In this document: positions 1,155 to 56,337 of the stretch, one piece after another
How the letters are laid out: every line of letters starts with the position of its first letter
How positions within the stretch are numbered: the first letter of the stretch is position 1
Source: Escherichia phage JLBYU50
Reading direction: 5' to 3' (one strand)
DNA: 64,000 nt
Sequence record: OK272470.1
Position numbers and translations under genes: made by a program
The notes under the pieces: generated by a model
What the model was told of the DNA's origin: nothing
What the model saw: the letters and a program-made list of their open reading frames with translations, nothing else
The model's database searches: none

Positions 1155-1351
1155 TGTTTCTCCTTATTTAAAGTATTGTTCTAACAAAACACTAATGCGA
1201 ACTACCGATTCGCCCATATACGCCCCAGCACAGAGGAAAACAACAAATCTACAAAAATTGCAGTACCATTTGTCCACTGGAAACGAGGTTAACATTATAA
1301 TTGCAATAGCAATTAACATCATAAAAACTGTTACTAATACCATATTACCTC

Positions 1352-2467
1352 TTACTCTGCTGGTTCCCAAGTACCTGGAATCATCTTACGTACACGTACC
1401 CCAACAGGCTTGGTAGGAATACCTTCGTCTGAAAATTCTTCGTACTCTATTTCAACAAATTGACCAATAAGTATCAAAGCATTTTCTTCTTTACGATAGT
1501 TAATGGTTTCATCTGAATCCTTACGCATCAGGAATTCGACTACTTTACCATTTTCCATCTCACCTGTCAATACCCCGTCACCATTTTTATCACGTTTTGC
1601 ACTTACCACCTTAACTTCCAGCGTCTGCCGTGGTTTACGTTTAATAACATCATAAGAACGTTTATCAAACTCGTAAACACCTTGTGCATTACGATACACA
1701 ACACCTTCCGCTTTCTCACGCAGAGCTTTTGCATAGAATTCATCAAACTGCTCTTGGTTTTCAATGTACTCTGTATGTACTACACAAATAAGTTCATCTA
1801 AACCTTTATCTTCAACAACGTCTTTTAGAGCAGCCAAAACTTCAACCCTCTTCTCAAATGGTACAGATGGCACAGGAACATCATATACATAGTATTTAAG
1901 AAGCGGAGTGTTAGCATTATGCTTTTTCCACGCACTATTAATTTGTTGAAGGCTAAGGACACCCAAACCAGCAAAAACTTCACCGTCAAGAGGATGACCA
2001 ACTACTTCTTTAATGAAGGTTGGAATTTCTTTCCAGTGAGGTGGAAGTTTATATACTTCCCCAGCTTTAGATAAACATTCACCTTGCATGTTAATCATTG
2101 AACGTAGACCATTCAATTTATATTGTGCATAACCTGGGAACAAAACACGATCAGCATAATCTTTATAATCCTGACATTTCATGGGTGTGGAAGGAACATG
2201 GTTTTCAGCTTCCTCTTTTGTTTTATAATACCCATTCTTAAGTTGTTTTGTCCATTTGGCAAGAGCTTCTATTTCAGCTTGTTCTTCTGCTGTTGTTTCA
2301 TTTGAGCGACCAATATTTTTAGGTTCTGCTGTATAAGATTTGCTAGTAATCTTTCCACCTAATTGACCATGAGCAACAGTTACAACACTACCTTCGGTAT
2401 AGACTGACCACTGTTTAATTTTACCTGTAGAAGTTTTACCATACAATGTAGGATTAGTTTGTTTCAT
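1352..2467 (-). CDS. ATP-dependent polynucleotide ligase (DNA ligase-like; covalent nucleotidyltransferase superfamily)
   Basis: motif I variant KLNGLR, motif III LDGEVF, motif IV EGVVYR, motif V KRK plus C-terminal OB-like region; start moved to ATG at 2467 (MKQTNPTLYGK) with GGAGG RBS rather than the ORF-track ATG at 2515. Confidence 0.6.
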   Translation of the reverse strand: MKQTNPTLYGKTSTGKIKQWSVYTEGSVVTVAHGQLGGKITSKSYTAEPKNIGRSNETTAEEQAEIEALAKWTKQLKNGYYKTKEEAENHVPSTPMKCQDYKDYADRVLFPGYAQYKLNGLRSMINMQGECLSKAGEVYKLPPHWKEIPTFIKEVVGHPLDGEVFAGLGVLSLQQINSAWKKHNANTPLLKYYVYDVPVPSVPFEKRVEVLAALKDVVEDKGLDELICVVHTEYIENQEQFDEFYAKALREKAEGVVYRNAQGVYEFDKRSYDVIKRKPRQTLEVKVVSAKRDKNGDGVLTGEMENGKVVEFLMRKDSDETINYRKEENALILIGQFVEIEYEEFSDEGIPTKPVGVRVRKMIPGTWEPAE

Positions 2468-11438: not shown

Positions 11439-11514
11439 GGTTCCATAGCTCACTGACGAGAGCGCACACCTCATAAGTGTCGAGGGCAGGGATTGTAACC
11501 CTGGGGAACCACCA
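11439..11514 (+). tRNA. tRNA with CAT anticodon (Met/Ile-type), non-canonical D- and T-loops
   Basis: complete cloverleaf: acceptor GGTTCCA/GGGAACC, D-stem GCTC/GAGC, anticodon loop CTCATAA, T-stem CAGGG/CCCTG, encoded ACCA; T-loop is ATTGTAA rather than TTCRANY. Confidence 0.45.
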
Positions 11515-11545
11515 TTTAAAAGGAGGTGCTATGCATCTCCTATAT

Positions 11546-11631
11546 GCAAGTGTGGTGGAATTGGTGATACACATTGTGCTTAAAACGCAACGCTTAAATG
11601 CTTGAGGGTTCGAATCCCTCCACTTGCACCA
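11546..11631 (+). tRNA. tRNA-Leu (anticodon TAA)
   Basis: acceptor GCAAGTG/CACTTGC, anticodon loop CTTAAAA, long variable arm, T-loop GGTTCGAATCC, ACCA encoded. Confidence 0.8.
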
Positions 11632-11647
11632 ACACCTAAAAAAATAT

Positions 11648-11677
11648 CTTGACATTTACTTAGTTTTTTGTTATAGT
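11648..11677 (+). promoter_or_regulatory. sigma70-like promoter inside tRNA array
   Basis: TTGACA 11648-11653, 18-nt spacer, TATAGT 11672-11677. Confidence 0.45.
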
Positions 11678-11687
11678 TACTATGAAA

Positions 11688-11769
11688 ACGGGGTGTATCT
11701 CACCTGACTTCTAATCAGGCGTTAACCGAGTAATTGGAGTATGCAGGTTCGAATCCTGTCACCCCGGCC
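11688..11769 (+). tRNA. atypical tRNA-like gene, anticodon hairpin reads TCT (Arg-type)
   Basis: perfect acceptor CGGGGTG/CACCCCG, canonical T-arm GCAGG-TTCGAAT-CCTGT, GCCA 3' end, perfect hairpin CCTGA-CTTCTAA-TCAGG; no conventional D-arm fits between acceptor and this hairpin. Confidence 0.4.
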
Positions 11770-11787
11770 AAAAAGTTTTAAAAACTA

Positions 11788-11817
11788 CTTGACAAGCAAG
11801 ATAGTTTTATGTTAGAT
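11788..11817 (+). promoter_or_regulatory. sigma70-like promoter inside tRNA array
   Basis: TTGACA 11788-11793, 18-nt spacer, TAGATT 11812-11817. Confidence 0.4.
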
Positions 11818-11833
11818 TTAAAGTATAATAACT

Positions 11834-11923
11834 GGAAGGTAGGGCGCAGCGGTGCGCAACCAGGTTTGAACCCTGGCCCATTGTAGCGATACGGTGATGG
11901 TTCGACTCCATTATCTTCCTCCA
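11834..11923 (+). tRNA. tRNA-Ser (anticodon TGA)
   Basis: acceptor GGAAGGT/ATCTTCC, anticodon stem CCAGG/CCTGG with loop TTTGAAC, long variable arm, T-loop TTCGACT, TCCA 3' end. Confidence 0.7.
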
Positions 11924-11929
11924 AATTCA

Positions 11930-12094
11930 ATGAGTGATTTTATGAATTATAAAACTATTGGACAGGTTGTTACCGGAGTTAAGATTGTAAATAATAAAGT
12001 TGTTTATGAGTATTCTAATCTTCAACAATCTGAAGATGGTAAGAATATTCGTATGGTAAAAGAAGAACAAAAAGATTCCGGTTGTTTTGAATAA
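11930..12094 (+). CDS. possible small protein (54 aa) between tRNA genes
   Basis: ORF-track ORF 11894..12094 starts inside the tRNA-Ser; first ATG after the tRNA is at 11930; no clear RBS. Confidence 0.25.
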   Translation: MSDFMNYKTIGQVVTGVKIVNNKVVYEYSNLQQSEDGKNIRMVKEEQKDSGCFE

Positions 12095-12102
12095 TTAAAA
12101 AC

Positions 12103-12188
12103 GGTAGATTGGTGAAATGGTAGCCACAACAGTTTGCTAAACTGTCGTCGGAAACGGCGTGTAGGTTCAAGTCCTACATCTACCGCCA
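12103..12188 (+). tRNA. tRNA-Ser (anticodon GCT)
   Basis: acceptor GGTAGAT/ATCTACC, anticodon stem ACAGT/ACTGT loop TTGCTAA, long variable arm, T-arm TAGG-TTCAAGT-CCTA, GCCA. Confidence 0.8.
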
Positions 12189-12315
12189 AGTTATCTTTAA
12201 TGTAGCTTGTCATCTTACTTTAATAGAGTAAACTTTCGGCAGATGGCCCCCCACCATCTTACCGATATCCCATAGTCAAGTGCCGCAAACACTGGCTATT
12301 TTAAAGATAATTTAT

Positions 12316-12391
12316 ACATCGTTAGCTTAGTTGGTAGAGCAAGGGGCTTTTAACTCCAAGGTCGAAGGTTCGAATCCTTCACGATGTACCA
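12316..12391 (+). tRNA. tRNA-Lys (anticodon TTT)
   Basis: acceptor ACATCGT/ACGATGT, D-arm TAGCTTAGTTGGTAGAGC, anticodon loop CTTTTAA, T-loop GGTTCGAATCC, ACCA. Confidence 0.75.
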
Positions 12392-12396
12392 AACAC

Positions 12397-12483
12397 GTAG
12401 GTATCGCATAGCGGCAATTGCTGGAGACTGTAAATCTCTTGCCCTTCGGGGCTTCGTTGGTTCGAGTCCAACTACCTGCACCA
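12397..12483 (+). tRNA. tRNA-Tyr (anticodon GTA)
   Basis: acceptor GTAGGTA/TACCTGC, anticodon loop CTGTAAA, long variable arm, T-arm GTTGG-TTCGAGT-CCAAC, ACCA. Confidence 0.75.
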
Positions 12484-12490
12484 AATTAAA

Positions 12491-12575
12491 GATGGATTGG
12501 CCTAGTGGTTGGGCGACGGACTGTTAATCCGTGAACGAAAGTTCTAGCAAGGTTCAAATCCTTGATCCATCGCCA
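12491..12575 (+). tRNA. tRNA with GTT anticodon (Asn-type) carrying a long variable arm
   Basis: acceptor GATGGAT/ATCCATC, anticodon stem ACGGA/TCCGT loop CTGTTAA, 15-nt variable hairpin GAAC-GAAA-GTTC, T-loop GGTTCAAATCC, GCCA. Confidence 0.55.
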
Positions 12576-12580
12576 AATAG

Positions 12581-12646
12581 TGCTTGTAGAGTTAATAGAA
12601 ACCTCTAGAATTTTCTAGAATTGTAGGTATCAAATCCTACCAAGCA
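12581..12646 (+). other. degenerate tRNA-like remnant
   Basis: acceptor-like TGCTTG/CAAGCA and T-arm-like GTAGG-TATCAAAT-CCTAC, but no foldable anticodon arm and no CCA. Confidence 0.25.
12604..12620. repeat. tandem direct repeat TCTAGAA-TTT-TCTAGAA
   Basis: two copies of TCTAGAA (each containing palindromic TCTAGA) separated by TTT, read directly at 12604-12620. Confidence 0.7.
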
Positions 12647-12654
12647 AATATTTT

Positions 12655-12729
12655 GCTCCTATCGTATAACGGCTATTACGGTTGCCTTGTAAGCAACTTA
12701 TCAGGGTTCGAGTCCTTGTGGGAGCACCA
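12655..12729 (+). tRNA. tRNA-Thr (anticodon TGT)
   Basis: acceptor GCTCCTA/TGGGAGC, anticodon stem GTTGC/GCAAC loop CTTGTAA, T-loop GGGTTCGAGTCC, ACCA. Confidence 0.8.
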
Positions 12730-12751
12730 ATTTAACTCTAAAGGAGTGTAT

Positions 12752-13075
12752 GTGACAGAAAAAGAGTTAGAGGAATATTTTAATATCAATGTTTTCGATG
12801 GTTTTGATGATATTGAAGATGTTGAAAGATATTATGAAGTAGAGTTAGATAAGGATAACATTGTAATTCTTTCTGCAACTTATGATTGTGCATATTATGA
12901 AGGCGAATCTCACGTTTATTTTTATGATATGAAAACATCTTTGTTTTATGAAGTACACGCATATCATTGTTCTTGTTATGGCTTAGAAGGTCAGTGGGAA
13001 CCTGAAGAAATAGGTGATTTGGACTTTACTATTGCATATCTAAACAGACGTGGTGCATCTACTATTTTAAAATAA
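12752..13075 (+). CDS. hypothetical protein (107 aa)
   Basis: ORF-track ORF 12653..13075 starts inside tRNA-Thr; start re-set to in-frame GTG at 12752, 5 nt after AAGGAG. Confidence 0.4.
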   Translation: MTEKELEEYFNINVFDGFDDIEDVERYYEVELDKDNIVILSATYDCAYYEGESHVYFYDMKTSLFYEVHAYHCSCYGLEGQWEPEEIGDLDFTIAYLNRRGASTILK

Positions 13076-13089
13076 ATATCAAAAGCCTC

Positions 13090-13119
13090 TTGACAAAGGG
13101 GCTAATAATATGTTAGAGT
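13090..13119 (+). promoter_or_regulatory. sigma70-like promoter inside tRNA array
   Basis: TTGACA 13090-13095, 18-nt spacer, TAGAGT 13114-13119. Confidence 0.4.
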
Positions 13120-13130
13120 AATATTGTTAA

Positions 13131-13205
13131 GCGGGTATAGTGTTAATGGTAGCATATGAGGTTTCCACCCTCCAGGTGCAGGTTCAAGTCCTGTTACTCG
13201 CTCCA
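13131..13205 (+). tRNA. tRNA-Gly (anticodon TCC)
   Basis: acceptor GCGGGTA/TACTCGC, anticodon loop TTTCCAC, T-arm GCAGG-TTCAAGT-CCTGT, TCCA. Confidence 0.75.
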
Positions 13206-13304
13206 AGATTATTTAAATGGAATCGCTAGAGAAAATTTCTCTTTTCGCTCATGGTTTTCTCCTTCAAACTCTAGCGGTTCTTTTTAAGTGATTTTTAGTT
13301 TTAT

Positions 13305-13379
13305 TGGAGATTAGCCTAGTGGGAAGGCAACGGCCTTTGAAGTCGTGATGACTAGGTTCGATTCCTAGATCTCCAGCCA
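13305..13379 (+). tRNA. tRNA-Gln (anticodon TTG)
   Basis: acceptor TGGAGAT/ATCTCCA, D-arm GCCTAGTGGGAAGGC, anticodon loop CTTTGAA, T-arm CTAGG-TTCGATT-CCTAG, GCCA. Confidence 0.8.
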
Positions 13380-13386
13380 ATATTTA

Positions 13387-13462
13387 CAGTGCGTAGCGCA
13401 GTTGGTAGCGTGGGAGCCTTGGACGCTTCAGGTCGCAGGTTCGAGTCCTGCCGCACTGACCA
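13387..13462 (+). tRNA. tRNA-Pro (anticodon TGG)
   Basis: acceptor CAGTGCG/CGCACTG, D-arm GCGCAGTTGGTAGCGT, anticodon loop CTTGGAC, T-arm GCAGG-TTCGAGT-CCTGC, ACCA. Confidence 0.8.
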
Positions 13463-13467
13463 AATTT

Positions 13468-13542
13468 GCAGAGATAGCTGAGACGGATTAGTGCTACCCT
13501 GAAAAGGTAGAAAGGATGGATCGTTACCATCTCTCTGCACCA
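13468..13542 (+). tRNA. tRNA-Phe (anticodon GAA)
   Basis: acceptor GCAGAGA/TCTCTGC, anticodon stem CTACC/GGTAG loop CTGAAAA, T-stem GATGG/CCATC (loop ATCGTTA), ACCA. Confidence 0.7.
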
Positions 13543-13617
13543 AATATCACCATCCAAGGAGTAGACTTGGTTAACTGTCAATAGCACATTGAGGCTTCTT
13601 ACAGTGGTGTATTTTAT

Positions 13618-13702
13618 GGCTAAGTGGTGGAATGGTATACACGATACGCTTAGAACGTATTGCCCCAAGGGATTGTGAGTTCGAGTCTCACCTTAGCTAC
13701 CA
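13618..13702 (+). tRNA. tRNA-Leu (anticodon TAG)
   Basis: acceptor GGCTAAG/CTTAGCT, anticodon stem ATACG/CGTAT loop CTTAGAA, long variable arm, T-arm GTGAG-TTCGAGT-CTCAC, ACCA. Confidence 0.8.
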
Positions 13703-13780
13703 TATCTAAGAGATATCATAGGGTTTGCAACGGATATCTACCGTCCTGTTAAGGATACCACGCCAAGACGGGTTATAAAG

Positions 13781-13856
13781 GGTTAGCCATTGATAGTGTG
13801 AAGCTGGCGTTTCGAGTGCTTTCATAAGGCATTGCGAGAAGAGTTCGATCCTCTTA
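13781..13856 (+). tRNA. tRNA with CAT anticodon (Met or Ile-lysidine type)
   Basis: perfect acceptor TGATAGT/ACTATCA, anticodon loop TTCATAA, T-arm AAGAG-TTCGATC-CTCTT, ACCA. Confidence 0.65.
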
Positions 13857-13871
13857 CTATCAACCAAATTA

Positions 13872-13950
13872 TTACAGATTGTGCGGGATAGAGGAGTCTG
13901 GTCGTCCTCGCCAGTTTCATATGCTGGAGATCATCGGTTCGAATCCGATT
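13872..13950 (+). tRNA. tRNA with CAT anticodon (Met or Ile-lysidine type), 1:72 mismatch
   Basis: acceptor TGCGGGA/TCCCGCC with unpaired first position, anticodon loop TTCATAT, T-arm ATCGG-TTCGAAT-CCGAT, TCCA. Confidence 0.6.
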
Positions 13951-13994
13951 CCCGCCTCCAATAAATACCTCCCTTCTGGTGTAATGATTAAGTT

Positions 13995-14091
13995 ACATTG
14001 ACACTTCAAGGAACTCATAGCCGGGTAGATTTAAAAGAGTATGGTACTCAATATGGCTCCAAACCATAGATCAGGGGGTTCGATTCCTCAC
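13995..14091 (+). tRNA. tRNA-like element with Trp-type anticodon arm (CCA); 5' half non-canonical
   Basis: perfect anticodon arm TATGG-CTCCAAA-CCATA, T-loop GGTTCGATTCC, GCCA 3' end; no 7-bp acceptor partner at the expected distance, only a 5-bp CAAGG/CCTTG pairing about 40 nt upstream. Confidence 0.35.
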
Positions 14092-14106
14092 CTTGCTGCC
14101 AATTAT

Positions 14107-14182
14107 TGTGGTATCGTACAGATGGTTAGTACACTCGACCGATAATCGAGAAACAACGGTTCGACTCCGTTTACCACGACCA
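14107..14182 (+). tRNA. tRNA-Ile (anticodon GAT)
   Basis: acceptor TGTGGTA/TACCACG, D-arm GTAC-AGATGGTTA-GTAC, anticodon stem CTCGA/TCGAG loop CCGATAA, T-arm AACGG-TTCGACT-CCGTT, ACCA. Confidence 0.75.
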
Positions 14183-14293
14183 AACTCCGTGCCAGCGGTG
14201 TCTTCGAAGAACAAGCCTAGTTCCTTCTGAGATGGAGGGGTGCGACTCCTTAACGCACAATATACTACTACTAAATACTTATCAGGAGATATC

Positions 14294-14563
14294 ATGTATA
14301 CTTTAAAAGTAATTCGCAAGTTTCCTCAAGAAGAGGAAGTAAGAATTTATAACACTGTACCATTCGTAGTAAATGAAGAAGAATTCTTTTATTGCTTAGA
14401 AGATGAAGTAATTATTCAATATCATTGGGAAGGTTACGACAGACAAGATGGTGTTGTAGCTTCTGTGCTTGCTGGTGATAGAGTGTTATTCATTCACAAG
14501 ACTGAATCAGCATATCTAATGAATGATAAAGGACAAACTGTTAAAGTAATTAACAGACCATAA
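14294..14563 (+). CDS. hypothetical protein (89 aa)
   Basis: ORF-track frame; start re-set to ATG 14294 preceded by AGGAGA RBS. Confidence 0.5.
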   Translation: MYTLKVIRKFPQEEEVRIYNTVPFVVNEEEFFYCLEDEVIIQYHWEGYDRQDGVVASVLAGDRVLFIHKTESAYLMNDKGQTVKVINRP

Positions 14564-14574
14564 AGAATTTTATA

Positions 14575-14607
14575 AAAGCCTCCTTTTTGGAGGTTTTTTA
14601 TTATCTA
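14575..14607 (+). terminator. rho-independent terminator
   Basis: GCCTCC-TTTTT-GGAGG stem-loop followed by TTTTTTATTAT. Confidence 0.6.
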
Positions 14608-14669
14608 TAAAATAAAGATCTTTACAAAACGTATAAAATATGTTATCCTTAAGTAAGGAGGTGCATATT

Positions 14670-14960
14670 ATGCCTAAATTGAAAAGAGGTCGAGGTAGAC
14701 CTACAGCCGAAATGCAACAGATTTATGCTATGGATGCTGCACAGGCGCAAGTAAAAGAAATTTTTGCTGGTCGTTATTTAGATGCTATGCGTTACATTGC
14801 AGATCTTGTTGTAGATGAAAAGGCTTCTGCTAATATTAAGTTGACTGCTTCTAAGATCATCAAAGAACAAGTAGAAGAATGGCTGGAAGAACATTATGAA
14901 TCTATGGAAGAAGAAGATATTCTTCCAGAAAATTCTCCCCCTCAAAAAATCGTTATCTAA
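14670..14960 (+). CDS. small protein with AT-hook-like KRGRGRP motif (possible DNA-binding protein)
   Basis: ORF-track frame; start re-set to ATG 14670 after AAGGAGG RBS; PKLKRGRGRPTAE near N-terminus, acidic C-terminus. Confidence 0.5.
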   Translation: MPKLKRGRGRPTAEMQQIYAMDAAQAQVKEIFAGRYLDAMRYIADLVVDEKASANIKLTASKIIKEQVEEWLEEHYESMEEEDILPENSPPQKIVI

Positions 14961-15098: not shown

Positions 15099-15272
15099 AT
15101 GAGAAACTATGTAGCTAAACACGATTTTAATAGGGCTTCTTATCACAGAGATAAGAAGAACAGTTATTCGCGTAAATGGGATCTGGAGGAAGAGTTAGAC
15201 TATGATTACAGAAGAACAATGGAAGGAGATTTTGGAGAATGCACAACCGATGGTAGTGAAGAAGATAGTTAA
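15099..15272 (+). CDS. small hydrophilic protein (57 aa)
   Basis: below ORF-track cut-off; ACAGGAGG RBS 8 nt upstream of ATG. Confidence 0.35.
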   Translation: MRNYVAKHDFNRASYHRDKKNSYSRKWDLEEELDYDYRRTMEGDFGECTTDGSEEDS

Positions 15273-15307: not shown

Positions 15308-15739
15308 ATGATGATACTGACTATGTTAATAAACCTACTGAAGAATAAATGGGTTAGGTATTTTGTTCTTATTATAGCACTATTTGGTGGTTTGTATGTT
15401 GGTTTAAACAAATTACACGATGACGTGTATGCACAAGGCTACAACGCAGGTGTTGCTAAACAAGAACAAATATTACAACAAAACCAAATTAAAGCAAAAC
15501 AGCAATTCGATATCTTACAAGCAAAAGCAGATTCAGAAAGATCTAAATTGAATGAAAAAATTCATTCATTAACGAAAGAAAGAAATGATCTTCTTACACA
15601 ACTGGATAAGAAGAGTAATAACATAACACAAGAGAGAATAGATTATGCGAAAACATCTTCTGGCGCTATGTCTTGTTTTAGCCCTAATGATGACGGGTTG
15701 CGCATCATCAACAACAGCTTCCCAGCCTCTACTGATTGA
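15308..15739 (+). CDS. i-spanin (Rz-like): N-terminal TM helix plus periplasmic coiled coil
   Basis: TM segment YFVLIIALFGGLYVGL followed by Q/K-rich heptad region; 3' end overlaps the lipoprotein ORF in another frame; exact start uncertain. Confidence 0.5.
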   Translation: MMILTMLINLLKNKWVRYFVLIIALFGGLYVGLNKLHDDVYAQGYNAGVAKQEQILQQNQIKAKQQFDILQAKADSERSKLNEKIHSLTKERNDLLTQLDKKSNNITQERIDYAKTSSGAMSCFSPNDDGLRIINNSFPASTD

Positions 15740-15974
15740 GCAGTGTAAAGCTGTAGCAACACAACAAATAAAAGCCCCTGATTCTGTCAGTATGGAAAAA
15801 CCATCTACCCCTGTTTTATATACCCCTAATCAAATAAAGAAAGGAGTTACAAGATCAGAGGTAGTTGAGAATCAAACTTTAAACAACGCTTTGTGGGAAA
15901 AAGATAGGATAAAACTTATCAGTTTACAAAACTATATTAAAACATTACAAAGTGAAGGAATAATTTCTAATTAG
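15645..15974 (+). CDS. o-spanin (Rz1-like) outer-membrane lipoprotein
   Basis: signal peptide MRKHLLALCLVLALMMTGC with lipobox Cys; gene starts inside the preceding ORF (15645-15739 overlap). Confidence 0.55.
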   Translation: MRKHLLALCLVLALMMTGCASSTTASQPLLIEQCKAVATQQIKAPDSVSMEKPSTPVLYTPNQIKKGVTRSEVVENQTLNNALWEKDRIKLISLQNYIKTLQSEGIISN

Positions 15975-15982
15975 GAGGAGAT

Positions 15983-18067
15983 GTGGCAAGGAAACCTGTC
16001 AAACAATCTTTTGAAAATGTAGATATTGAAGTTAAAGCCCAACCTGGCAAACAAACACTAGCTATGGATCTTATGCCTGAAGTAATGATTTATGGTGGTG
16101 CGGCAGGTTGTGTTTCAGCAGAAACAGAATACCTAACAAGAGACGGTTGGAAACAAATAAGTGAATATGATGGTGAGGATATTTATCAATACAATCCAAG
16201 AAATAAACGTCTTGAATTAGTTACACCATCTTTTGTAGAATATGATGCTAAAGATAATCTGTATTGTATCACAAACGGAGTAGGTGTCTTCCAAGAATTA
16301 AGTATGGAACATCGCTTTGTTTTCTACAAGAAGAAAAAATCCAAAAAACATTTTGAAATTCTTGTTGGGGATCTTATTGCACTACAGCAAGCAGGACACC
16401 CATTACGAGGATATATTGAAAATCCTTTTGGTAAGCGTGTTCCGTTTAACATTCAAGGTAAACCTAGCACATACCTAAAAATTCATGAGGTAATGACAAG
16501 TGATGATAAGAAATATTGCTTTGAAACTCCAAGCAGTTATGTCGTGTTTAGACGTGGCGATCACATCTTCGTTACTGGGAATAGCGGCAAAAGCCGTCTG
16601 CTACTTCTAAAGGCACTTAAATACGCATATAAAGATCCACTGTTTGGTGGTATTCTTTTCCGTAAAAATACAACAGCTTTACGTAAATCTGGTGGTTTGT
16701 TTACTGAAGCTAAAAAACTTTATCTACCATTAAAGCCTCACGTAAGAGAACAGGCTATGGAGATGGAGTTCAGAGCCACAAAAGGTGGTACACTTAAATT
16801 TGACCATCTTGAAAATGATAACGTAACTGCTGAAACTAACCATCAAGGTACACAGTATTCGATGGTGGGGTTTGACGAACTTACACATTTTACACAATAT
16901 GAAATGCTATATCTGTTAGGGCGTATGCGTTCTGAATCAGAAACGTCTTTTATGCTGTGTACTTGTAACCCTGATGCGGATAGTTGGGTGTTAAAGTGGG
17001 TACTTCCTTATTTGGATGAAGCTGGTTATCCACGAGAAGATATGTGTGGCAAACAGCTATACTTTCTTATTGTACAAGATGAACCAGTATTTGCTGAAAC
17101 AGCAGAAGAGTTGAAAGAAAAGTATCCTGAAAACTGTTTTATGCAAAACCCGAACACAGGTGAAACAGTGGTTATTGAACCACAAACATTTGTGTTCATT
17201 GGTGGTACTATCTTTGATAACCCTGAACTAATAAGACTTAACCCTAAATACTTAGCTTCTTTGAAGGCTCAAACCGCCGTTAAGAGAGCACAGCTTTTAG
17301 ATGGTTGTTGGTTTGCTCGTGCACAAGAAGAGAGTTTCTTTAACAGAGAATGGTTACACGTTATCAAGTTTAAAGATTTACCAAACAATCTTAAATATAT
17401 GCGAGCGTGGGATAAAGCAGTATCTGTTCCAACAGAATCTTATCGTTATCCTGACTACACAACATCTGTTAAAATGGCTAAAGACTCGGATGGAAATTAT
17501 TACATTTTTGGTGATTATGATTATGATGCTCACGATGAAGGTAGTAAGATTTTTGGTAGATTCAGAAGACTACCAGGTGACAGAGATAATTTAATTCTAA
17601 ACCAATGTAAGATTGATGGAGATGAAGTTACAGTTGTATTGCCAAAAGATCCTTCTGGTGCTGGTTTGATTGAATATACAGAATCAGCTAAAAAACTAAT
17701 TGCTGAAGGGTTTGTTGTTAAACCAGATGCTATGCCTGGTAACAAGAAAAAATTACAACGCTTTATGCCATTTAGTAGTGCTTGTCAAAATGGTTTTGTT
17801 TATATTGTAGAAGAATCTTTCCCTAACAAAGAAACTCTTGATCATTTCTATAAAGAGATGGAGTCATTTAATGGAGAAAGATCTACGGCAACATTAAAAG
17901 ATGATATTCCAGATGCTGCTGCATCTTGCTTTAATACTTTGTCAAAAGAACAGATGTTTAAAGCAGTAGCAATACCTTCTGCAACAAATGCATTAACAGG
18001 GTACGGTAAGATGGGTGGAAGATCAAGAAACTCTTTATCTTCTCCATACAGTATCAGAGGAAGATAA
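15983..18067 (+). CDS. terL: terminase large subunit (intein-containing precursor)
   Basis: 694-aa ORF first in the packaging/head block, GTG start after AGGAGG; Walker A GGAAG/SGKS is split by an intein-like insert. Confidence 0.75.
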   Translation: MARKPVKQSFENVDIEVKAQPGKQTLAMDLMPEVMIYGGAAGCVSAETEYLTRDGWKQISEYDGEDIYQYNPRNKRLELVTPSFVEYDAKDNLYCITNGVGVFQELSMEHRFVFYKKKKSKKHFEILVGDLIALQQAGHPLRGYIENPFGKRVPFNIQGKPSTYLKIHEVMTSDDKKYCFETPSSYVVFRRGDHIFVTGNSGKSRLLLLKALKYAYKDPLFGGILFRKNTTALRKSGGLFTEAKKLYLPLKPHVREQAMEMEFRATKGGTLKFDHLENDNVTAETNHQGTQYSMVGFDELTHFTQYEMLYLLGRMRSESETSFMLCTCNPDADSWVLKWVLPYLDEAGYPREDMCGKQLYFLIVQDEPVFAETAEELKEKYPENCFMQNPNTGETVVIEPQTFVFIGGTIFDNPELIRLNPKYLASLKAQTAVKRAQLLDGCWFARAQEESFFNREWLHVIKFKDLPNNLKYMRAWDKAVSVPTESYRYPDYTTSVKMAKDSDGNYYIFGDYDYDAHDEGSKIFGRFRRLPGDRDNLILNQCKIDGDEVTVVLPKDPSGAGLIEYTESAKKLIAEGFVVKPDAMPGNKKKLQRFMPFSSACQNGFVYIVEESFPNKETLDHFYKEMESFNGERSTATLKDDIPDAAASCFNTLSKEQMFKAVAIPSATNALTGYGKMGGRSRNSLSSPYSIRGR
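16109..16582 (+). other. mini-intein (158 aa, no endonuclease domain) in TerL P-loop
   Basis: begins CVSAETEYLT (Cys1), block-B-like SMEHRF, ends HIFVTGN with +1 Ser; excision would give GGAAGSGKSRLL. Confidence 0.7.
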
Positions 18068-18100: not shown

Positions 18101-18164
18101 AGCATTATATGTCTACCCCTTCAATTGGGTAGAGTCATTTGTCCAGCATTAGCGGAGGTTCTGA

Positions 18165-39402: not shown

Positions 39403-41976
39403 ATGTCAACTACAATTACTAATTTACCCGAAACATCAAAAGTTAATGGTTCTGATTACCTGGTTTTAGACCAACCTGATAAGACTGTTAAAAGCACAGT
39501 TTCCAACTTTCTTGCTGACACTGGGGTGGTTTTAGCCACCCAGTTGAAAGATACAGATGGAGCAGATTTAATACAATCCTCAAATGGTAATACTGTTCAG
39601 GAAGAGTTGAATAACAATCTTCTTAATGATCGTGAACAGTGGCATCGTAGTCTTGCTGAGGCAGGGTTAACCCTTGTCAACGGTAGCTTTGAAGAAGGGG
39701 CTACAGTAAACAATAAGACGGATGCTGTTTGGCATATTGCTGGTGGGCAGTGCTATACGTGGGGTGGTGAATTTCCTAAAACAGTAGCTGCTGGTTCAAC
39801 TCCAGAAACATCTGGTGGCATTGGTCTTGGTGCATGGGTTAGTGTTGTGGATATGTCATTAAGGGATAATCTTTCAAACTCCAGTAATGATAATTACGGT
39901 GATGCGCTGGTAGCAGTTAAGCAGCCGTATACTACCGCAATAAGTAGAACGCAGCATGATAAAAATGCTGATGTACTTGATATTTCGGATTTTGGTGTAG
40001 ACATAACTGGTGCTTCTGATGAGGGTAGTAAGTTACAACAGATATTTAATGAGTTGGCCGCAGCAGGCAAGACTATTCGTATGCGCGGTTCTGTAAAGAC
40101 TACTATTAACCTAGATATAAGGTGTAACGTGCTGTTTGAGCAGGGTTTCAAACTAACTGGCGTGAAACTAGAAACTGGACCTCAGACTTACATTAATATT
40201 TTTAATCGTAATGTAGATGTAAGCCATATTATCCTAGATGGTATTGTTATGTGTTTCTACCCCGTAAGTTCCACTACTACTGTTAGAAACAAAAGATGTA
40301 TTACGTTTACATCCAACACGTTAGAAGATTCATGTGTTCAGGTGGGCGGTAATAACCTATCTGTACGTAACGTGTTAATTTCTAACAATACTTTTAAGAA
40401 CTCTGGGTCACGTATTCCAACAGCAATTCGCCTAACTAATGTCTCAAATATTGAGGTGAGTTTTAACCTTATCCATGAGTATGGTAGACCTATTTACCAA
40501 ACAGCAACCCGCTCTTTCTCCAACTACAATGTCAATATACACCACAATAATATGGTTTGTGAGTATGGTATAACTCTTGCGGGTACTACTGCTTTTAGGG
40601 TTAGTAAGTTCACAATTGCTGACAATGACATTGTTTGCGAGGTAAGAAATACAGCAACAGGTGGTCGGGATGGTATTGATGTAGTTTATGGTACTAGTGG
40701 TTTGATTACTAACAATAACATAAGGACAAACGGAAGAAGCCTTAGACTGTCTAATACTAAGGTAGATGTACTGTTTAACGATATGATATCCAGCGCAACC
40801 AGTGCATTCTCAGTATTAATGGCGAGTTGTTATGAGTCATCATTTGTTGGTAACACTGTTTTCAATAACTCAACTGCTGAAATTATTGTTGTACATGTGC
40901 AGGATGAAGCTGGTGGGCTTTACCGGAGTAATAACATTCGTGTGGAATCTAATACAATCAAGGGATTTGGTAGGCTGATTCGGGTATTAGATACAAAGGA
41001 TTATGTTGTCATCAATAACAGATTAATCAGAACATCAAACAATGGTAATGCAGTTATTATTGCGGATGGGACTAGTGACAGAGGCCAGGTGCATAGCAAT
41101 GTGGTAGTTGGTCCTGCTGGAGTGGTAGTATCTGATATAGGCGGAACCAACAATGCAACAACCCCTGCTGATACACTGCTGAGTGTTGCAGCTAACAGCA
41201 AGACCATAACAGCCGTGGCGAATGGATTAGTTGATCCAGACTTGAATAATTCGAAGGCATTCATCTTCAATGTTCAGGTGTCTGATGTTCAACTATTACG
41301 TGCGGTATCTTCTACAGGCTCAGGAAATGCTAAAACCGTATCTCAGTTCATGTCGGGTATAACTGGGGCAACTCTGGCATGGAATGGTACTGCCTTCCTA
41401 TCAGAGATGTCTGGACCACCAGATATATTTGTGAATGGTGTACTTCAAGATTCCTATGGTGCAGAAGACTATGTGTTCTACAGATCAGGGATGCTTATTG
41501 ATTCCCAGAATAAACTCAGTGTTAGAGACTTCCAGTGTATTGGGGATGGGGATACCATAAACGATGGGACTGGTAATATGACCCTTCGTAATATGGCAGC
41601 AGCACAATCGGCTGAGGGCGCTATTCACAGTGCTTTCTTCCGTGCTCCTCTTGTTATGAATGGCTCAGTGTATGACCCTACAGTAACAGGTATTGCATCT
41701 TCAGATTTGTTTAGCACAGCTCTAGATCCAAGAATGGCTATAGGACAAAAAGCTGATGGAACCTACGTTATTATTTGTGTTAATGGCAGAAACGCAGATG
41801 GGGTAAGTCCAGGCTGCACTATGCAGCAGCTAGCTTCTAAGTTTGTAGCCCTTGGTTGTATCAACGCAATGAATTTGGATGGCGGCGGTTCAGCTACTCT
41901 TTGGTATAACGGTGCTATCATTAATGACCCGGCGGATGGAAGTGAACGCCCTGTTTACCATTGTATGTATGTGTAA
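39403..41976 (+). CDS. tailspike-like protein: beta-helix body plus C-terminal NLDGGGS domain
   Basis: N/V/I-rich repetitive beta-helix-like middle region; C-terminal ...CINAMNLDGGGSATLWYNGAIINDPADGSERPVYHCM resembles the phosphodiester-glycosidase (NAGPA/DUF2233-type) signature. Confidence 0.55.
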   Translation: MSTTITNLPETSKVNGSDYLVLDQPDKTVKSTVSNFLADTGVVLATQLKDTDGADLIQSSNGNTVQEELNNNLLNDREQWHRSLAEAGLTLVNGSFEEGATVNNKTDAVWHIAGGQCYTWGGEFPKTVAAGSTPETSGGIGLGAWVSVVDMSLRDNLSNSSNDNYGDALVAVKQPYTTAISRTQHDKNADVLDISDFGVDITGASDEGSKLQQIFNELAAAGKTIRMRGSVKTTINLDIRCNVLFEQGFKLTGVKLETGPQTYINIFNRNVDVSHIILDGIVMCFYPVSSTTTVRNKRCITFTSNTLEDSCVQVGGNNLSVRNVLISNNTFKNSGSRIPTAIRLTNVSNIEVSFNLIHEYGRPIYQTATRSFSNYNVNIHHNNMVCEYGITLAGTTAFRVSKFTIADNDIVCEVRNTATGGRDGIDVVYGTSGLITNNNIRTNGRSLRLSNTKVDVLFNDMISSATSAFSVLMASCYESSFVGNTVFNNSTAEIIVVHVQDEAGGLYRSNNIRVESNTIKGFGRLIRVLDTKDYVVINNRLIRTSNNGNAVIIADGTSDRGQVHSNVVVGPAGVVVSDIGGTNNATTPADTLLSVAANSKTITAVANGLVDPDLNNSKAFIFNVQVSDVQLLRAVSSTGSGNAKTVSQFMSGITGATLAWNGTAFLSEMSGPPDIFVNGVLQDSYGAEDYVFYRSGMLIDSQNKLSVRDFQCIGDGDTINDGTGNMTLRNMAAAQSAEGAIHSAFFRAPLVMNGSVYDPTVTGIASSDLFSTALDPRMAIGQKADGTYVIICVNGRNADGVSPGCTMQQLASKFVALGCINAMNLDGGGSATLWYNGAIINDPADGSERPVYHCMYV

Positions 41977-42016
41977 TTATCTGGTGGGACTATGCTAATG
42001 GCGTAGATTTCATAGC

Positions 42017-42045
42017 AAAAAAAAACCCCGCTTCGGCGGGGTAAT
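42017..42045. terminator. GC stem-loop CCCCGC-TTCG-GCGGGG flanked by A-run upstream
   Basis: perfect 6-bp stem; A8 run on the 5' side means the U-tract is on the minus strand although flanking genes are on +. Confidence 0.4.
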
Positions 42046-42071
42046 CATTGAGAATAACAATAGGAGTACAT

Positions 42072-42170
42072 ATGGAATCTCAACTCAGTCAACCTAAGCA
42101 GGTTATCAACGTCAAAGTGAACAAGCAGAGTATCGCTCATGATTTAAAAAGTAATGAGAACGCACTATGA
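42072..42170 (+). CDS. small protein (32 aa)
   Basis: below ORF-track cut-off; AGGAG RBS 6 nt upstream; stop TGA overlaps ATG of next gene (ATGA). Confidence 0.3.
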   Translation: MESQLSQPKQVINVKVNKQSIAHDLKSNENAL

Positions 42171-42412
42171 GAAAATTTTTAATAGGTATGTTCTGTACAT
42201 ATCCTGATAATAAAGTCAGTTCTACTAAAGTTTGGAATGCTATTGGTATGATTGTTATGTCCAGTATGTTTATTTATTTGGGAATTGATAAAGAAATTCC
42301 TGAATGGATGGGCTGGGCTTTTGTTTTTATGATCACACCATCCAGACTAATGAAGAATTTAATAGATTTACGTTGGGGCAGATCACCTGCTCCTGATAAG
42401 GAGGATAACTAA
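42167..42412 (+). CDS. small membrane protein with two predicted TM helices (holin-like topology)
   Basis: 81 aa; hydrophobic segments IGMIVMSSMFIYLGI and WMGWAFVFMITP, charged C-terminus. Confidence 0.45.
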   Translation: MRKFLIGMFCTYPDNKVSSTKVWNAIGMIVMSSMFIYLGIDKEIPEWMGWAFVFMITPSRLMKNLIDLRWGRSPAPDKEDN

Positions 42413-46098: not shown

Positions 46099-46440
46099 AT
46101 GGAGCTAACAGAAGTATGGGATATCGCTAAAGAGGCGATTATCCCTCTTATTGGCGTAATCTGGGTGGTCTTCAAACAGAAGATAGATGATATGGCAAGT
46201 GATTTGGATAAAATGGAAGACAAATACCGCGAACTAGAAAAGAAGTTGGTGTTTGTTGAATCCACTTATGCTACCAAAGCGGAACTTGCTCAAATGCTTA
46301 ACCAGATCAACTCTACATTAATGGCAAATAACACTGCCTTAGAACAGAAGATTGAAAAAATAATGGATTTAAAAAATGCTCCTGTTCAATTAATGTTAGA
46401 GGAGATTACGAAGCGCACACAAAGTAAGGACAAAAATTAA
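46099..46440 (+). CDS. small protein with N-terminal hydrophobic helix and coiled coil (113 aa)
   Basis: ORF track; IIPLIGVIWVVF segment then heptad-rich region. Confidence 0.4.
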   Translation: MELTEVWDIAKEAIIPLIGVIWVVFKQKIDDMASDLDKMEDKYRELEKKLVFVESTYATKAELAQMLNQINSTLMANNTALEQKIEKIMDLKNAPVQLMLEEITKRTQSKDKN

Positions 46441-54931: not shown

Positions 54932-55879
54932 TTAGAAACAGTGCAGGAAGTTTCGACCATACTGCAAACCAATAGGAGCAAATGGGATATCATCATCGAA
55001 ATCTTGAACAACAGGTTCTGGTTCTTTCGGTGCTGGCTCTTTCTTCTCTACTTTTTTAGTTTCTTTCTTAACTTCTTGTACTGGGGTAGACATTCCACGG
55101 ATAGCAGCAGCTACTTTATCAGACAAAGCAAGAACTTCACGAGCAGCTTCAATAATCTCTTCTGCCGTTACAGTTTTACCTGTATGATCACGACAAGCGT
55201 TAAGAATTGCGTGTCCAACTGAAGCACCAAGATCATAATCAGTCACATCAACGCCACGATCTTTAGCAATTTCTGCTTTCAGAGTAACAGTTGCAGATTG
55301 TACCACACCAGCCAAGTCGAAAGCATCACCTTTCACACCAGCACGTAGAAGCTCCAGAGCGCCGTTTACAGCGTGTCCTGTTTCAATCCCTACGGTATCA
55401 CGTTTTTTGTAGTTAGGCTTGCTACCTTCGTTATTAGATGGCTTATTTCCACCTTTTGAAGAAGATTGTGCTTGCTGAACACCTTCTGTTGAAAGAATAG
55501 TGATTTTACCTTTAGAGGAATTGTAGTATGTTTTGCCATTCCATTCAGAAGGTTTAACATCCATAGTTAGTTCTACACCTTTTTCGATAGTAACCCACTT
55601 GTCACCATCTTTAACTTGCAGGTTTTCATGTTCTGGATGCAGTTTAACTTCACCTAGGCTAACCCAAACACCTTTATCATCAGCACTAGCACCTTTCTCT
55701 TTAATAAGCAGAGATGCTTTGTGAGTTGATTCAATTTTCTTATCTGGCTGACCTGCAACCTTAATATAAGAGACTTTCATTTCATCAAACTTATCCAGTT
55801 TGACATATTCAACGATACCTTCAGCCCAGAATGCTTCTTTTTTAGTACGACGGTCGATTTCAGAATTAATTACTGGCAT
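54932..55879 (-). CDS. ssb: single-stranded DNA-binding protein with internal acidic DFDDDIPF motif
   Basis: OB-fold-like N-terminal half, Gly/Ser/Asn-rich linker, acidic DFDDDIPF identical to bacterial SSB C-terminal tip, followed by 15 extra residues. Confidence 0.65.
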   Translation of the reverse strand: MPVINSEIDRRTKKEAFWAEGIVEYVKLDKFDEMKVSYIKVAGQPDKKIESTHKASLLIKEKGASADDKGVWVSLGEVKLHPEHENLQVKDGDKWVTIEKGVELTMDVKPSEWNGKTYYNSSKGKITILSTEGVQQAQSSSKGGNKPSNNEGSKPNYKKRDTVGIETGHAVNGALELLRAGVKGDAFDLAGVVQSATVTLKAEIAKDRGVDVTDYDLGASVGHAILNACRDHTGKTVTAEEIIEAAREVLALSDKVAAAIRGMSTPVQEVKKETKKVEKKEPAPKEPEPVVQDFDDDIPFAPIGLQYGRNFLHCF

Positions 55880-55895
55880 AAATTCTCCTCTATAA

Positions 55896-56294: not shown

Positions 56295-56304
56295 TCAAGT
56301 CCTC

Positions 56305-56334
56305 ATAATAACACATAATTATAATGTTTGTCAA
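56305..56334 (-). promoter_or_regulatory. sigma70-like promoter (minus strand)
   Basis: rc reads TTGACA (56334..56329), 18-nt spacer, TATTAT; upstream of 55896..56294 gene. Confidence 0.4.
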
Positions 56335-56337
56335 CAC

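What the first reader, a model, noticed from the sequence alone, without database searches (positions are those of the whole stretch)
15308..15974. Overlapping Rz/Rz1-type spanin pair directly upstream of the terminase, with no endolysin or holin beside it
Seen: 15308..15739 has an N-terminal TM helix and coiled coil; 15645..15974 starts inside it in another frame and begins with a lipoprotein signal (LALCLVLALMMTGC). This is the classic overlapped i-spanin/o-spanin architecture. No endolysin-like or holin-like gene is adjacent, so the lysis cassette appears split across the genome.
Basis: partly seen in the sequence, partly recalled or inferred. Interest (0 to 1): 0.45.

Follow-up and report, generated by a model that had tools for sequence, protein, structure and literature searches.

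The report
Known phi92-type overlapping spanin gene pair
These two overlapping genes are the outer-membrane-breaking "spanin" pair of a phi92-like E. coli phage; both the pair and its position beside the DNA-packaging gene, far from the other lysis genes, are already catalogued, so the finding is correct but ordinary.

Summary
ORF 15308-15739 (143 aa) has an N-terminal transmembrane helix followed by one long helix. ORF 15645-15974 (109 aa) starts inside it in the +1 frame, with a 95-nt overlap, and begins with a lipoprotein signal (MRKHLLALCLVLALMMTGC|A). The window is a phi92-like coliphage (Justusliebigvirus), over 99% identical to phi92 and BME3.

Both proteins hit PHROG "Rz-like spanin" families (1.9e-40 and 1.2e-20). 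Comparison with diverged relatives shows there is no wobble position inside the overlap, so both frames are under selection. The TMD, the lipobox and one periplasmic Cys in each protein are conserved.

This very pair is already listed in Kongari et al. 2018: phi92, "ovl", 55669-56101 / 56006-56336, overlap 95. It is annotated as i-/o-spanin in several GenBank records.

The lysis genes are indeed scattered. No muralytic gene and no adjacent small membrane protein occur in the window. In BME3 the GH24 lysozyme lies about 31 kb from the spanins and the SleB-like hydrolase about 50 kb away. Spanins sitting next to the large terminase, outside any lysis cassette, has already been described for rV5, PVP-SE1 and CB7.

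Verdict: interpretation supported, already known, low interest. No experiment on this family was found in the literature searched. The best by-product is an intein-like 158-aa insertion in the terminase Walker A motif.

The parts
15308..15739 (+). i-spanin gene (143 aa; alternative in-frame starts at 15311 and 15323 cannot be told apart, as none has a clear Shine-Dalgarno)
   Evidence: ORF. phrog_4297 'Rz-like spanin' 1.9e-40 over residues 2-140. Same protein as phi92 gp118, 'Rz-like spanin' in RefSeq, and as the 143-aa phi92 overlapped i-spanin entry (labelled OIS) in Kongari 2018.
15350..15406 (+). N-terminal transmembrane segment of the i-spanin (residues 15-33)
   Evidence: Kyte-Doolittle 19-residue mean 1.84. 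A hydrophobic segment sits at this place in all 10 aligned homologues. Helical in the AF2 model.
15407..15649 (+). Periplasmic long helix / coiled-coil region of the i-spanin (residues about 34-114)
   Evidence: AF2 gives a single helix 14-114 with block-mean pLDDT 82-94 over residues 11-100. Kongari 2018 supplement lists a predicted coiled coil at 54-115 for phi92 OIS.
15650..15736 (+). Conserved C-terminal region of the i-spanin (YAKTSSGAMSCFSPNDDGLRIINNSFP) with the single, invariant Cys123 (15674-15676); inferred contact and disulfide region
   Evidence: Invariant or near-invariant columns Y113 K115 G119 C123 F124 P126 D128 G130 L131 I133 I134 N135 S137 F138 P139. The role is inferred from the lambda Rz model (Kongari 2018).
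15645..15974 (+). o-spanin gene (109 aa precursor, 91 aa mature lipoprotein)
   Evidence: ORF. phrog_1267 'Rz-like spanin' 1.2e-20. Same as the phi92 overlapped o-spanin entry (labelled OOS: 109 aa, mature 91 aa, coordinates 56006-56336) in Kongari 2018.
15645..15701 (+). Lipoprotein signal peptide (residues 1-18) with lipobox M-T-G-C (15690-15701) and the acylated Cys19 (15699-15701); +2 residue is Ala
   Evidence: Regex and hydropathy. Signal plus lipobox conserved as MTGC, ITGC or VSGC in Tr1, phAPEC8, KP2025 and FBKp34. Processing itself was not tested.
15744..15746 (+). Cys34 of the o-spanin, the only periplasmic cysteine of the mature protein
   Evidence: Invariant in all 8 aligned phi92-type sequences. 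Inferred site of a homotypic disulfide.
15852..15953 (+). C-terminal helix of the o-spanin (residues 70-103; motif NN-LW--DR-KL--LQ-YI-TL)
   Evidence: AF2 helix 70-103, pLDDT about 76-85. The motif is conserved even in the rV5-like LL12 o-spanin.
15645..15739 (+). 95-nt dual-coding overlap (o-spanin in the +1 frame of the i-spanin)
   Evidence: All three codon positions are 57-81% invariant here, against 8% and 18% at wobble positions outside. The +1 overlap is kept in all relatives at 80-110 nt.
15973..15985 (+). Shine-Dalgarno AGGAGG and GTG start of the large terminase, overlapping the o-spanin stop codon
   Evidence: Read from the sequence. TerL identity from phrog_979 3.3e-221 and PF03237.
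14574..14598 (+). Terminator-like hairpin upstream. With the terminator-like site at 18112-18133 it brackets a possible transcription unit: gp115, gp116, i-spanin, o-spanin, TerL (inferred)
   Evidence: 10-bp stem plus T-run. Terminator-like sites are enriched in the region (7 found, 1.8 expected). The unit itself is inference only.

Best explanation
This is the two-component spanin of a phi92-like (Justusliebigvirus) coliphage.

Shown by sequence analysis: gene 1 encodes a protein with an N-terminal transmembrane helix and a roughly 80-residue helical stalk. Gene 2 encodes a precursor with a signal-peptidase-II lipobox and no Asp at +2.

Inferred from the lambda Rz/Rz1 model: gene 1's product sits in the inner membrane as a type II protein with its stalk in the periplasm. 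Gene 2's product is lipidated at Cys19 and sorted by Lol to the inner leaflet of the outer membrane. The two C-terminal regions bind each other, so the complex spans the periplasm threaded through the peptidoglycan. The single periplasmic cysteines (i-spanin Cys123, o-spanin Cys34) form homodimer disulfides. Once holin and endolysin, encoded elsewhere in the genome, have removed the peptidoglycan, the complexes collapse and fuse the inner and outer membranes, which completes lysis.

Also inferred: the genes are expressed with the late packaging genes. The o-spanin stop codon overlaps the ribosome-binding site of the large terminase, and no terminator-like site lies between them.
For: The ORFs, the +1 frame and the 95-nt overlap are confirmed. 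The proteins match PHROG spanin families 4297 and 1267 at 1.9e-40 and 1.2e-20. The TMD, signal, lipobox and cysteines are conserved in Stephanstirmvirinae relatives down to 33-37% identity. Both proteins occur together in the same number of phage records, 135 each. The loss of wobble freedom in the overlap shows purifying selection on both frames. AF2 gives a TMD plus one long helix for the i-spanin and a C-terminal helix for the o-spanin. The rV5-like phage LL12 has homologous, curator-annotated I-/O-spanins at the same position next to TerL. The identical pair is listed as an overlapped spanin pair of phi92 in Kongari et al. 2018 and is annotated i-/o-spanin in the BME3 and BASEL records.
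Against: I found no experimental test of this family (phi92, phAPEC8, rV5) in the literature searched, so the function rests on topology, architecture and catalogue membership. There is no Pfam or NCBIfam hit to lambda Rz/Rz1 or P2 LysB/LysC at threshold; the best is P2_Rz1 at 12 bits against a cut-off of 27. The mature o-spanin is 91 aa, only 5.5% Pro, and has a predicted helix, unlike the 40-aa proline-rich lambda Rz1. Neither start codon has a strong Shine-Dalgarno. Lipoprotein processing and TMD topology were judged from a regex and hydropathy only, not with SignalP, LipoP or TMHMM.
Confidence: 0.9

Rival explanations
1. The second ORF is a phage lipoprotein with another role, for example superinfection exclusion or receptor blocking like T5 Llp or the Cor proteins. 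The first would then be an unrelated membrane-anchored coiled-coil protein, and the overlap would be plain genome compaction.
For: There is no sequence-family link to an experimentally proven spanin. The location is away from endolysin and holin. The weak NCBIfam hits are only to generic lipoprotein signals such as TraV at E=0.04.
Against: The two genes always co-occur, in the same number of phage records (135 each), and always as an adjacent i-then-o pair. The topology pairing (type II inner-membrane protein plus outer-membrane lipoprotein without Asp+2, each with a conserved periplasmic Cys) is the defining spanin signature (Kongari 2018). No other spanin candidate pair turned up: the window holds no other lipobox ORF, and the BME3 genome annotation lists no other spanin. 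A myophage of a Gram-negative host is expected to need one.
Confidence: 0.06
2. The +1-frame ORF is real only from the internal ATGs at 15687 or 15690 (MMTGC...), as annotated in the BME3 and BASEL GenBank records. It would then have no signal peptide and would not be a lipoprotein.
For: Two GenBank records start the 'o-spanin' CDS at positions equivalent to 15690 and 15687.
Against: A start there leaves 3-4 residues before the Cys, which cannot direct export. The upstream 14-15 codons keep an n-region plus hydrophobic core in every lineage, including FBKp34, where the overlapping i-spanin C-terminus has diverged. 15645 has a weak GAGAG upstream and 15687/15690 have nothing. The curated spanin catalogue uses the 109-aa form.
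Confidence: 0.03
3. The overlapping ORF is a chance open frame and only the first gene is real.
For: The original phi92 GenBank and RefSeq records do not annotate it, and they call even gp118 'bad Prodigal statistics'.
Against: Seventy-eight of its 109 codons lie in otherwise non-coding DNA between the i-spanin stop and TerL, and they show a normal codon-position conservation pattern (positions 1/2/3 invariant at 51/71/18%). The overlap has lost wobble freedom. The protein is conserved at 34-72% identity across genera.
Confidence: 0.01

Closest known systems
phi92 spanin pair (phi92 gp118 plus the unannotated overlapping ORF; the 'phi92 family' of overlapped spanins with phAPEC8 in Kongari et al. 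2018, BMC Bioinformatics 19:326)
   Same: It is the same genes. The DNA of this region is 99.2% identical to phi92. Lengths are the same (143 and 109 aa, mature 91 aa), as are the 95-nt +1 overlap and the 432-nt i-spanin.
   Different: Nothing of substance. The window comes from a phi92-like isolate with a few substitutions.
rV5-type spanins (LL12 gp66 I-spanin / gp65 O-spanin; rV5, PVP-SE1, CB7)
   Same: They match the same PHROG families (4297 and 1267) at 3e-48 and 7e-22. Pairwise BLASTP gives 24-27% identity at E 1e-4 and 2e-8. The synteny is the same: tRNA cluster, small genes, i-spanin, o-spanin, TerL, portal. They also sit outside any lysis cassette.
   Different: The architecture is 'separated' (4-nt ATGA overlap) rather than overlapped by 95 nt. 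The rV5-type i-spanin lacks the Cys123 equivalent, and the o-spanin Cys is elsewhere. Kongari 2018 lists them as separate families.
P2 LysB/LysC
   Same: It has the overlapped architecture: the o-spanin starts inside the i-spanin in the +1 frame and runs past its end. The topology signals are the same.
   Different: There is no significant sequence similarity (NF038368 P2_Rz1 at 12 bits, cut-off 27). In P2 the pair sits in a lysis cassette next to holin and endolysin (general knowledge).
Lambda Rz/Rz1
   Same: It is the same functional class with the same predicted topology: a type II inner-membrane coiled-coil protein plus an outer-membrane lipoprotein, each with periplasmic Cys.
   Different: Lambda Rz1 is fully embedded in Rz, its mature form is 40 aa and proline-rich, and it is part of the S-R-Rz/Rz1 cassette. 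Here the o-spanin is only partly overlapped, 91 aa mature, 5.5% Pro, and has a C-terminal helix. There are no Pfam Rz/Rz1 hits.
T4 PseT.3/PseT.2
   Same: [quoted passage not shown] 8 legend).
   Different: The architecture is separated, there is no detectable sequence similarity, and the genes are not next to the terminase.

Membership tests
Two-component spanin (functional class, as defined by Summer et al. 2007 and Kongari et al. 2018) | The i-spanin is a small protein with a single N-terminal TMD (type II, N-in/C-out) | tested here: met
   One hydrophobic segment at residues 15-33 (KD19 1.84), preceded by K12/K14/R17 and followed by a polar domain. It is conserved in 10 homologues. The orientation is inferred, not computed with a topology predictor.
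Two-component spanin (functional class, as defined by Summer et al. 2007 and Kongari et al. 2018) | The i-spanin periplasmic domain is mostly alpha-helical / coiled coil | tested here: met
   AF2 gives a helix at 14-114 with high confidence. A published coiled-coil prediction places it at 54-115 for the identical phi92 protein.
Two-component spanin (functional class, as defined by Summer et al. 2007 and Kongari et al. 2018) | The o-spanin is an outer-membrane lipoprotein: SPII signal, lipobox Cys, no inner-membrane retention residue (Asp) at +2 | tested here: met
   MRKHLLALCLVLALM-MTGC-A: the lipobox regex matches at residues 16-19 and +2 is Ala. The lipobox is conserved in five lineages and +2 is always S, A, T or N. 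SignalP/LipoP were not available, and actual lipidation cannot be tested here.
Two-component spanin (functional class, as defined by Summer et al. 2007 and Kongari et al. 2018) | The i- and o-spanin genes are adjacent in embedded, overlapped or separated architecture, with the i-spanin first | tested here: met
   Overlapped, +1 frame, 95 nt. Both frames are under constraint.
Two-component spanin (functional class, as defined by Summer et al. 2007 and Kongari et al. 2018) | At least one periplasmic cysteine is available for homotypic intermolecular disulfides | tested here: met
   i-spanin Cys123 and o-spanin Cys34 are invariant within the phi92-type alignments. Disulfide formation itself was not tested.
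Two-component spanin (functional class, as defined by Summer et al. 2007 and Kongari et al. 2018) | Required for outer-membrane disruption; complements the lambda RzRz1 defect | not testable with these tools
   This needs genetics. No experimental report for this family was found.
Lambda Rz / Rz1 sequence families (Pfam Rz and Rz1 models) and P2 LysB/LysC (NCBIfam) | Score above the curated threshold of the family model | tested here: not met
   Pfam gives no Rz or Rz1 family among hits up to E=0.1 for either protein. NCBIfam gives P2_Rz1 (NF038368) at 12 bits against a cut-off of 27. So 'Rz/Rz1-type' describes how it works, not sequence-family membership.
PHROG 4297 / PHROG 1267 ('Rz-like spanin' clusters that also hold the rV5-type pair) | Full-length significant match to the family profile | tested here: met
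   1.9e-40 (residues 2-140 on profile positions 1-129 of 130) and 1.2e-20 (residues 1-108 on 2-92 of 119). The LL12 spanins hit the same two profiles.
Classic contiguous lysis cassette (holin-endolysin-spanin, lambda-like) | Holin and endolysin genes lie next to the spanin genes | tested here: not met
   There is no GH24 or SleB homologue in the 64-kb window and no neighbouring small TMD protein. In BME3 the spanins are at 90.7-91.4 kb, the GH24 lysozyme at 122.6 kb, the SleB-like hydrolase at 40.8 kb, and the holin candidates at 32.9 kb and 65.0 kb.

The most novel reading that the evidence does not exclude
The phi92-type 'overlapped' pair and the rV5-type 'separated' pair may be one homologous spanin lineage held at one locus, immediately upstream of TerL. 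They share PHROG families, give significant pairwise BLASTP, and have identical synteny. If so, gene architecture (a 4-nt versus an 80-110-nt overlap) and the positions of the disulfide cysteines have switched within a single lineage, whereas the published catalogue lists them as separate families. A related reading is that coupling the spanins to TerL expression (stop codon inside the TerL ribosome-binding site) has a function, for example in setting spanin dosage or timing.
Probability: 0.6. Interest if true: 0.2.

Novelty: already known. Interest (0 to 1): 0.08.

Why it matters
It matters little beyond correct annotation. The pair tells annotators of phi92-like therapeutic phages where the outer-membrane lysis function lies. 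It also shows that the o-spanin CDS must start at the position equivalent to 15645: several GenBank records start it at MMTGC or MTGC, which removes the signal peptide, and the phi92 record omits the gene altogether. The scattered lysis genes are a known trait of rV5-like and phi92-like large myophages, as in T4. The holin of this group remains unidentified, but this locus offers no new handle on that question.

Tried and rejected
- **Family scans of both proteins.** Pfam and NCBIfam gave no spanin family at threshold.
- **Large protein collection.** Word-indexed searches returned only 4 and 9 clusters, all close relatives and unnamed. tblastn against annotated phages was more useful.
- **phi92 genome paper.** The paper (PMC3457257) is not held, so its own account of the lysis genes could not be read.
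- **Nearby lysis-related gene.** phi92 gp113, annotated 'putative rIII lysis inhibition accessory protein', lies in the tRNA region of phi92. That roughly 320-bp segment is simply absent from this window, so it is irrelevant here.
- **Sigma-70 promoter scan.** Matches are no more frequent than in shuffled sequence (13 found, 14.8 expected). The promoter-like site at 14621-14649 is therefore not evidence, and only the terminator-like hairpins are enriched.
- **TerL insertion.** It gave no Pfam, NCBIfam or PDB sequence hit to intein/Hint models.

Full report
**What the window is.** A 3.5-kb query around the finding is at least 99% identical to 34 phage records. These include Escherichia phages phi92, BME3, KMB37, alia and the BASEL phages of genus Justusliebigvirus, subfamily Stephanstirmvirinae. 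The whole 64-kb window is collinear with BME3 positions about 106,835 to 43,452, reversed, at 98-99% identity. The one break lies at window 39,570-42,136.

**Check of the observation.** Both ORFs are at the stated coordinates.
- ORF 15308-15739 encodes 143 aa. It has one hydrophobic segment (residues 15-33, Kyte-Doolittle 19-mer mean 1.84) and a polar remainder.
- ORF 15645-15974 encodes 109 aa, starts in the +1 frame and overlaps the first ORF by 95 nt.
- Its N-terminus, MRKHLLALCLVLALMMTGCASS, has a basic n-region, a hydrophobic core, the lipobox M-T-G-C with Cys19, and Ala at +2.
- Its stop codon (15972-15974) overlaps the AGGAGG ribosome-binding site of the next gene, which starts with GTG at 15983. 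That gene is the large terminase (phrog_979 at 3.3e-221; PF03237, Terminase_6N).

**Is it more than chance?** I aligned the 667-nt locus with the orthologous loci of Citrobacter phage Tr1, phAPEC8 and Klebsiella phage KP2025.
- In the i-spanin-only part, the third codon position is invariant at 8% of sites, against 47% for position 2.
- In the o-spanin-only part, the third position is invariant at 18%, against 71% for position 2.
- Inside the overlap, all three positions are invariant at 57-81%.

The overlap therefore has no free wobble position, which is what two simultaneously selected reading frames produce. All five lineages examined keep the +1 overlap, at 80-110 nt.

**What it is.**
- The two proteins match the PHROG families 4297 and 1267, both labelled 'Rz-like spanin', at 1.9e-40 and 1.2e-20 over nearly their full lengths.
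- tblastn finds each protein in 135 phage records, all of the phi92 / phAPEC8 / Klebsiella-relative group.
- In i-spanin homologues down to 33% identity, the N-terminal hydrophobic segment, the central helical region and a C-terminal motif (YAKT-SG-MSCF-PNDDGL-IIN-SFP) with an invariant Cys123 are conserved.
- In o-spanin homologues down to 37% identity, the signal peptide, the lipobox (MTGC, ITGC or VSGC), a non-Asp +2 residue, an invariant Cys34 and a C-terminal motif (NN-LW--DR-KL--LQ-YI-TL) are conserved.
- AlphaFold2 predicts the i-spanin as one continuous helix over residues 14-114 (block-mean pLDDT 82-94 over residues 11-100) with a low-confidence C-terminus.
- It predicts the o-spanin as largely unstructured after the signal peptide, with a C-terminal helix at 70-103 (pLDDT about 76-85; overall mean only 64).

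**Already known.**
- Kongari et al. 2018 (PMC6139136) list phi92 and phAPEC8 as a two-member family among both overlapped i-spanins and overlapped o-spanins.
- Their supplementary tables give, for phi92: 'ovl', strand 1, 55669-56101 and 56006-56336, overlap 95, i-spanin 143 aa with a coiled coil at 54-115, o-spanin 109 aa with 91 aa mature. These are the same numbers as in the finding.
- RefSeq names phi92 gp118 'Rz-like spanin'. BME3 and the BASEL phage PaulScherrer annotate both genes as i-spanin and o-spanin, and the BME3 paper mentions the spanin complex.

**The split lysis cassette.**
- tblastn with the two muralytic enzymes of BME3 finds nothing in the window. These are a GH24 phage lysozyme (PF00959, 4e-12) and a SleB-like cell-wall hydrolase (PF07486, 2.9e-20).
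- In BME3 the enzymes lie at 122.6 kb and 40.8 kb, and the spanins at 90.7-91.4 kb.
- A hydropathy scan of all non-overlapping ORFs in the window finds only three other small ORFs with a hydrophobic segment: 1164-1370(-), 42167-42412 and 46099-46440. None is near the spanins.
- The three genes just upstream (14240-14563, 14640-14960, 15099-15272) hit only families of unknown function.
[quoted passage not shown] - T4 is the textbook case of spanins located away from t and e.

**Relation to rV5-type spanins.**
- The rV5-like phage LL12 has the same local order: tRNA cluster, small genes, I-spanin, O-spanin, TerL, portal. Its two spanin genes overlap by only 4 nt, the 'separated' architecture.
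- The LL12 proteins hit the same two PHROG profiles (3.1e-48 and 6.8e-22).
- They align to the window's proteins at 24% and 27% identity (pairwise E 1e-4 and 2e-8).
- The rV5-type i-spanin lacks the Cys123 equivalent, and its o-spanin cysteine sits elsewhere.

This suggests one lineage in which architecture and cysteine positions have changed. It is a modest point that the 2018 catalogue, which lists the two as separate families, does not make.

**Mechanism, with the steps marked.**
- Shown here by sequence analysis: the topology signals, the helical stalk, the conserved cysteines, dual-frame selection and co-occurrence.
- Inferred from the established lambda Rz/Rz1 model (Kongari 2018 and references therein): insertion into the inner membrane; Lol-dependent outer-membrane sorting of the Cys19-lipidated o-spanin; contact between the C-terminal regions of the two proteins across the periplasm; homodimer disulfides; and membrane fusion after the endolysin destroys the peptidoglycan.
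- Inferred from local anatomy: co-expression with TerL. The stop codon lies inside the TerL Shine-Dalgarno. No terminator-like site lies on the + strand between the hairpin at 14574-14598 and TerL; within TerL there are two weak + strand matches (16637-16650 and 17044-17062) before the site at 18112-18133.
- The sigma-70-like promoter matches are at background frequency and carry no weight.

**Membership.** As a functional class (two-component spanin), every testable sequence criterion is met. As members of the lambda Rz/Rz1 or P2 LysB/LysC sequence families, they fail: no Pfam hit, and NCBIfam P2_Rz1 at 12 bits against a cut-off of 27. The mature o-spanin (91 aa, 5.5% Pro, C-terminal helix) also differs from the short proline-rich lambda Rz1 and looks more like the larger T4-type o-spanins. 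No experimental study of this family was found.

**Annotation note.** BME3 starts its o-spanin CDS at the equivalent of 15690, and PaulScherrer at 15687. This gives MTGC... and MMTGC..., which removes the signal peptide. The phi92 record lacks the o-spanin CDS entirely. The upstream start at 15645 is supported by a conserved signal peptide in all lineages, including FBKp34, where the overlapping i-spanin C-terminus has diverged.

**Verdict.** The feature is already catalogued and of low interest.

Noticed in passing
window 16109-16582 (+), residues 43-200 of the large terminase (15983-18067): There is a 158-aa insertion exactly inside the Walker A motif: IYGGAAG|CVSAETEY...DHIFVTGN|SGKSRL. The TerL of Klebsiella phage FBKp34 reads IYGGAAGSGKSRL without interruption. 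A first Cys, a last Asn and a Ser at +1 are the hallmarks of a mini-intein. The insertion is also present in Tr1, phAPEC8 and KP2025 and resembles an insertion in a PhoH-like PHROG family (9.5e-12). [quoted passage not shown]
   Followed up: partly
window 15687-15692; GenBank PP239276 (BME3) and MZ501100 (PaulScherrer); NC_023693 (phi92): In two public records the o-spanin CDS starts at MTGC or MMTGC, which cuts off the signal peptide. In the phi92 record it is not annotated at all. The 109-aa form starting at 15645 is the one with a conserved lipoprotein signal.
   Followed up: yes
window 46099-46440 (+): This is a 113-aa ORF in the tail-fibre module with an N-terminal hydrophobic segment (residues 6-24) followed by a coiled-coil-like sequence. 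It matches phrog_15210 'lipoprotein' (2e-70) and, weakly, phrog_739 'Rz-like spanin' (8.8e-4). It has no lipobox and no partner lipoprotein gene nearby. It has an i-spanin-like topology in an odd place.
   Followed up: partly
window 42167-42412 (+): This is an 81-aa membrane protein between baseplate and tail-spike genes. BME3 annotates it 'membrane protein-holin', but its only family hit is phrog_1322 'membrane protein'. The holin of this phage group remains unidentified according to the BME3 and LL12 papers.
   Followed up: partly
window 39570-42136: This is the only break in collinearity with BME3. About 2.6 kb of the window replaces about 1.8 kb of BME3 (65,314-67,131) in the tail-spike region. 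It is probably a receptor-binding-protein swap.
   Followed up: no
window 11439-14182 (+): A cluster of 16 tRNA genes, including three tRNA-Met(CAT), lies directly upstream of the spanin/terminase block. Relative to phi92, about 320 bp carrying phi92 gp113 ('putative rIII') is missing at about window 13300-13312.
   Followed up: partly
window 14640-14960 (+): This is a 106-aa protein (phi92 gp115, phrog_3330, function unknown) with a basic N-terminus (PKLKRGRGRP), two genes upstream of TerL. No small terminase subunit is annotated anywhere in BME3, so it is a positional candidate for TerS. This was not tested.
   Followed up: no
BME3 locus L003:40819-41328 (about 2 kb beyond the window's right end): The SleB-like cell-wall hydrolase begins with a hydrophobic, signal-like N-terminus (LSIKTFVAIALLSLTAFTFTPVVAQAEA). 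It may therefore be an exported or SAR-type endolysin that does not need a canonical holin, which could bear on why no holin is found in this group.
   Followed up: no
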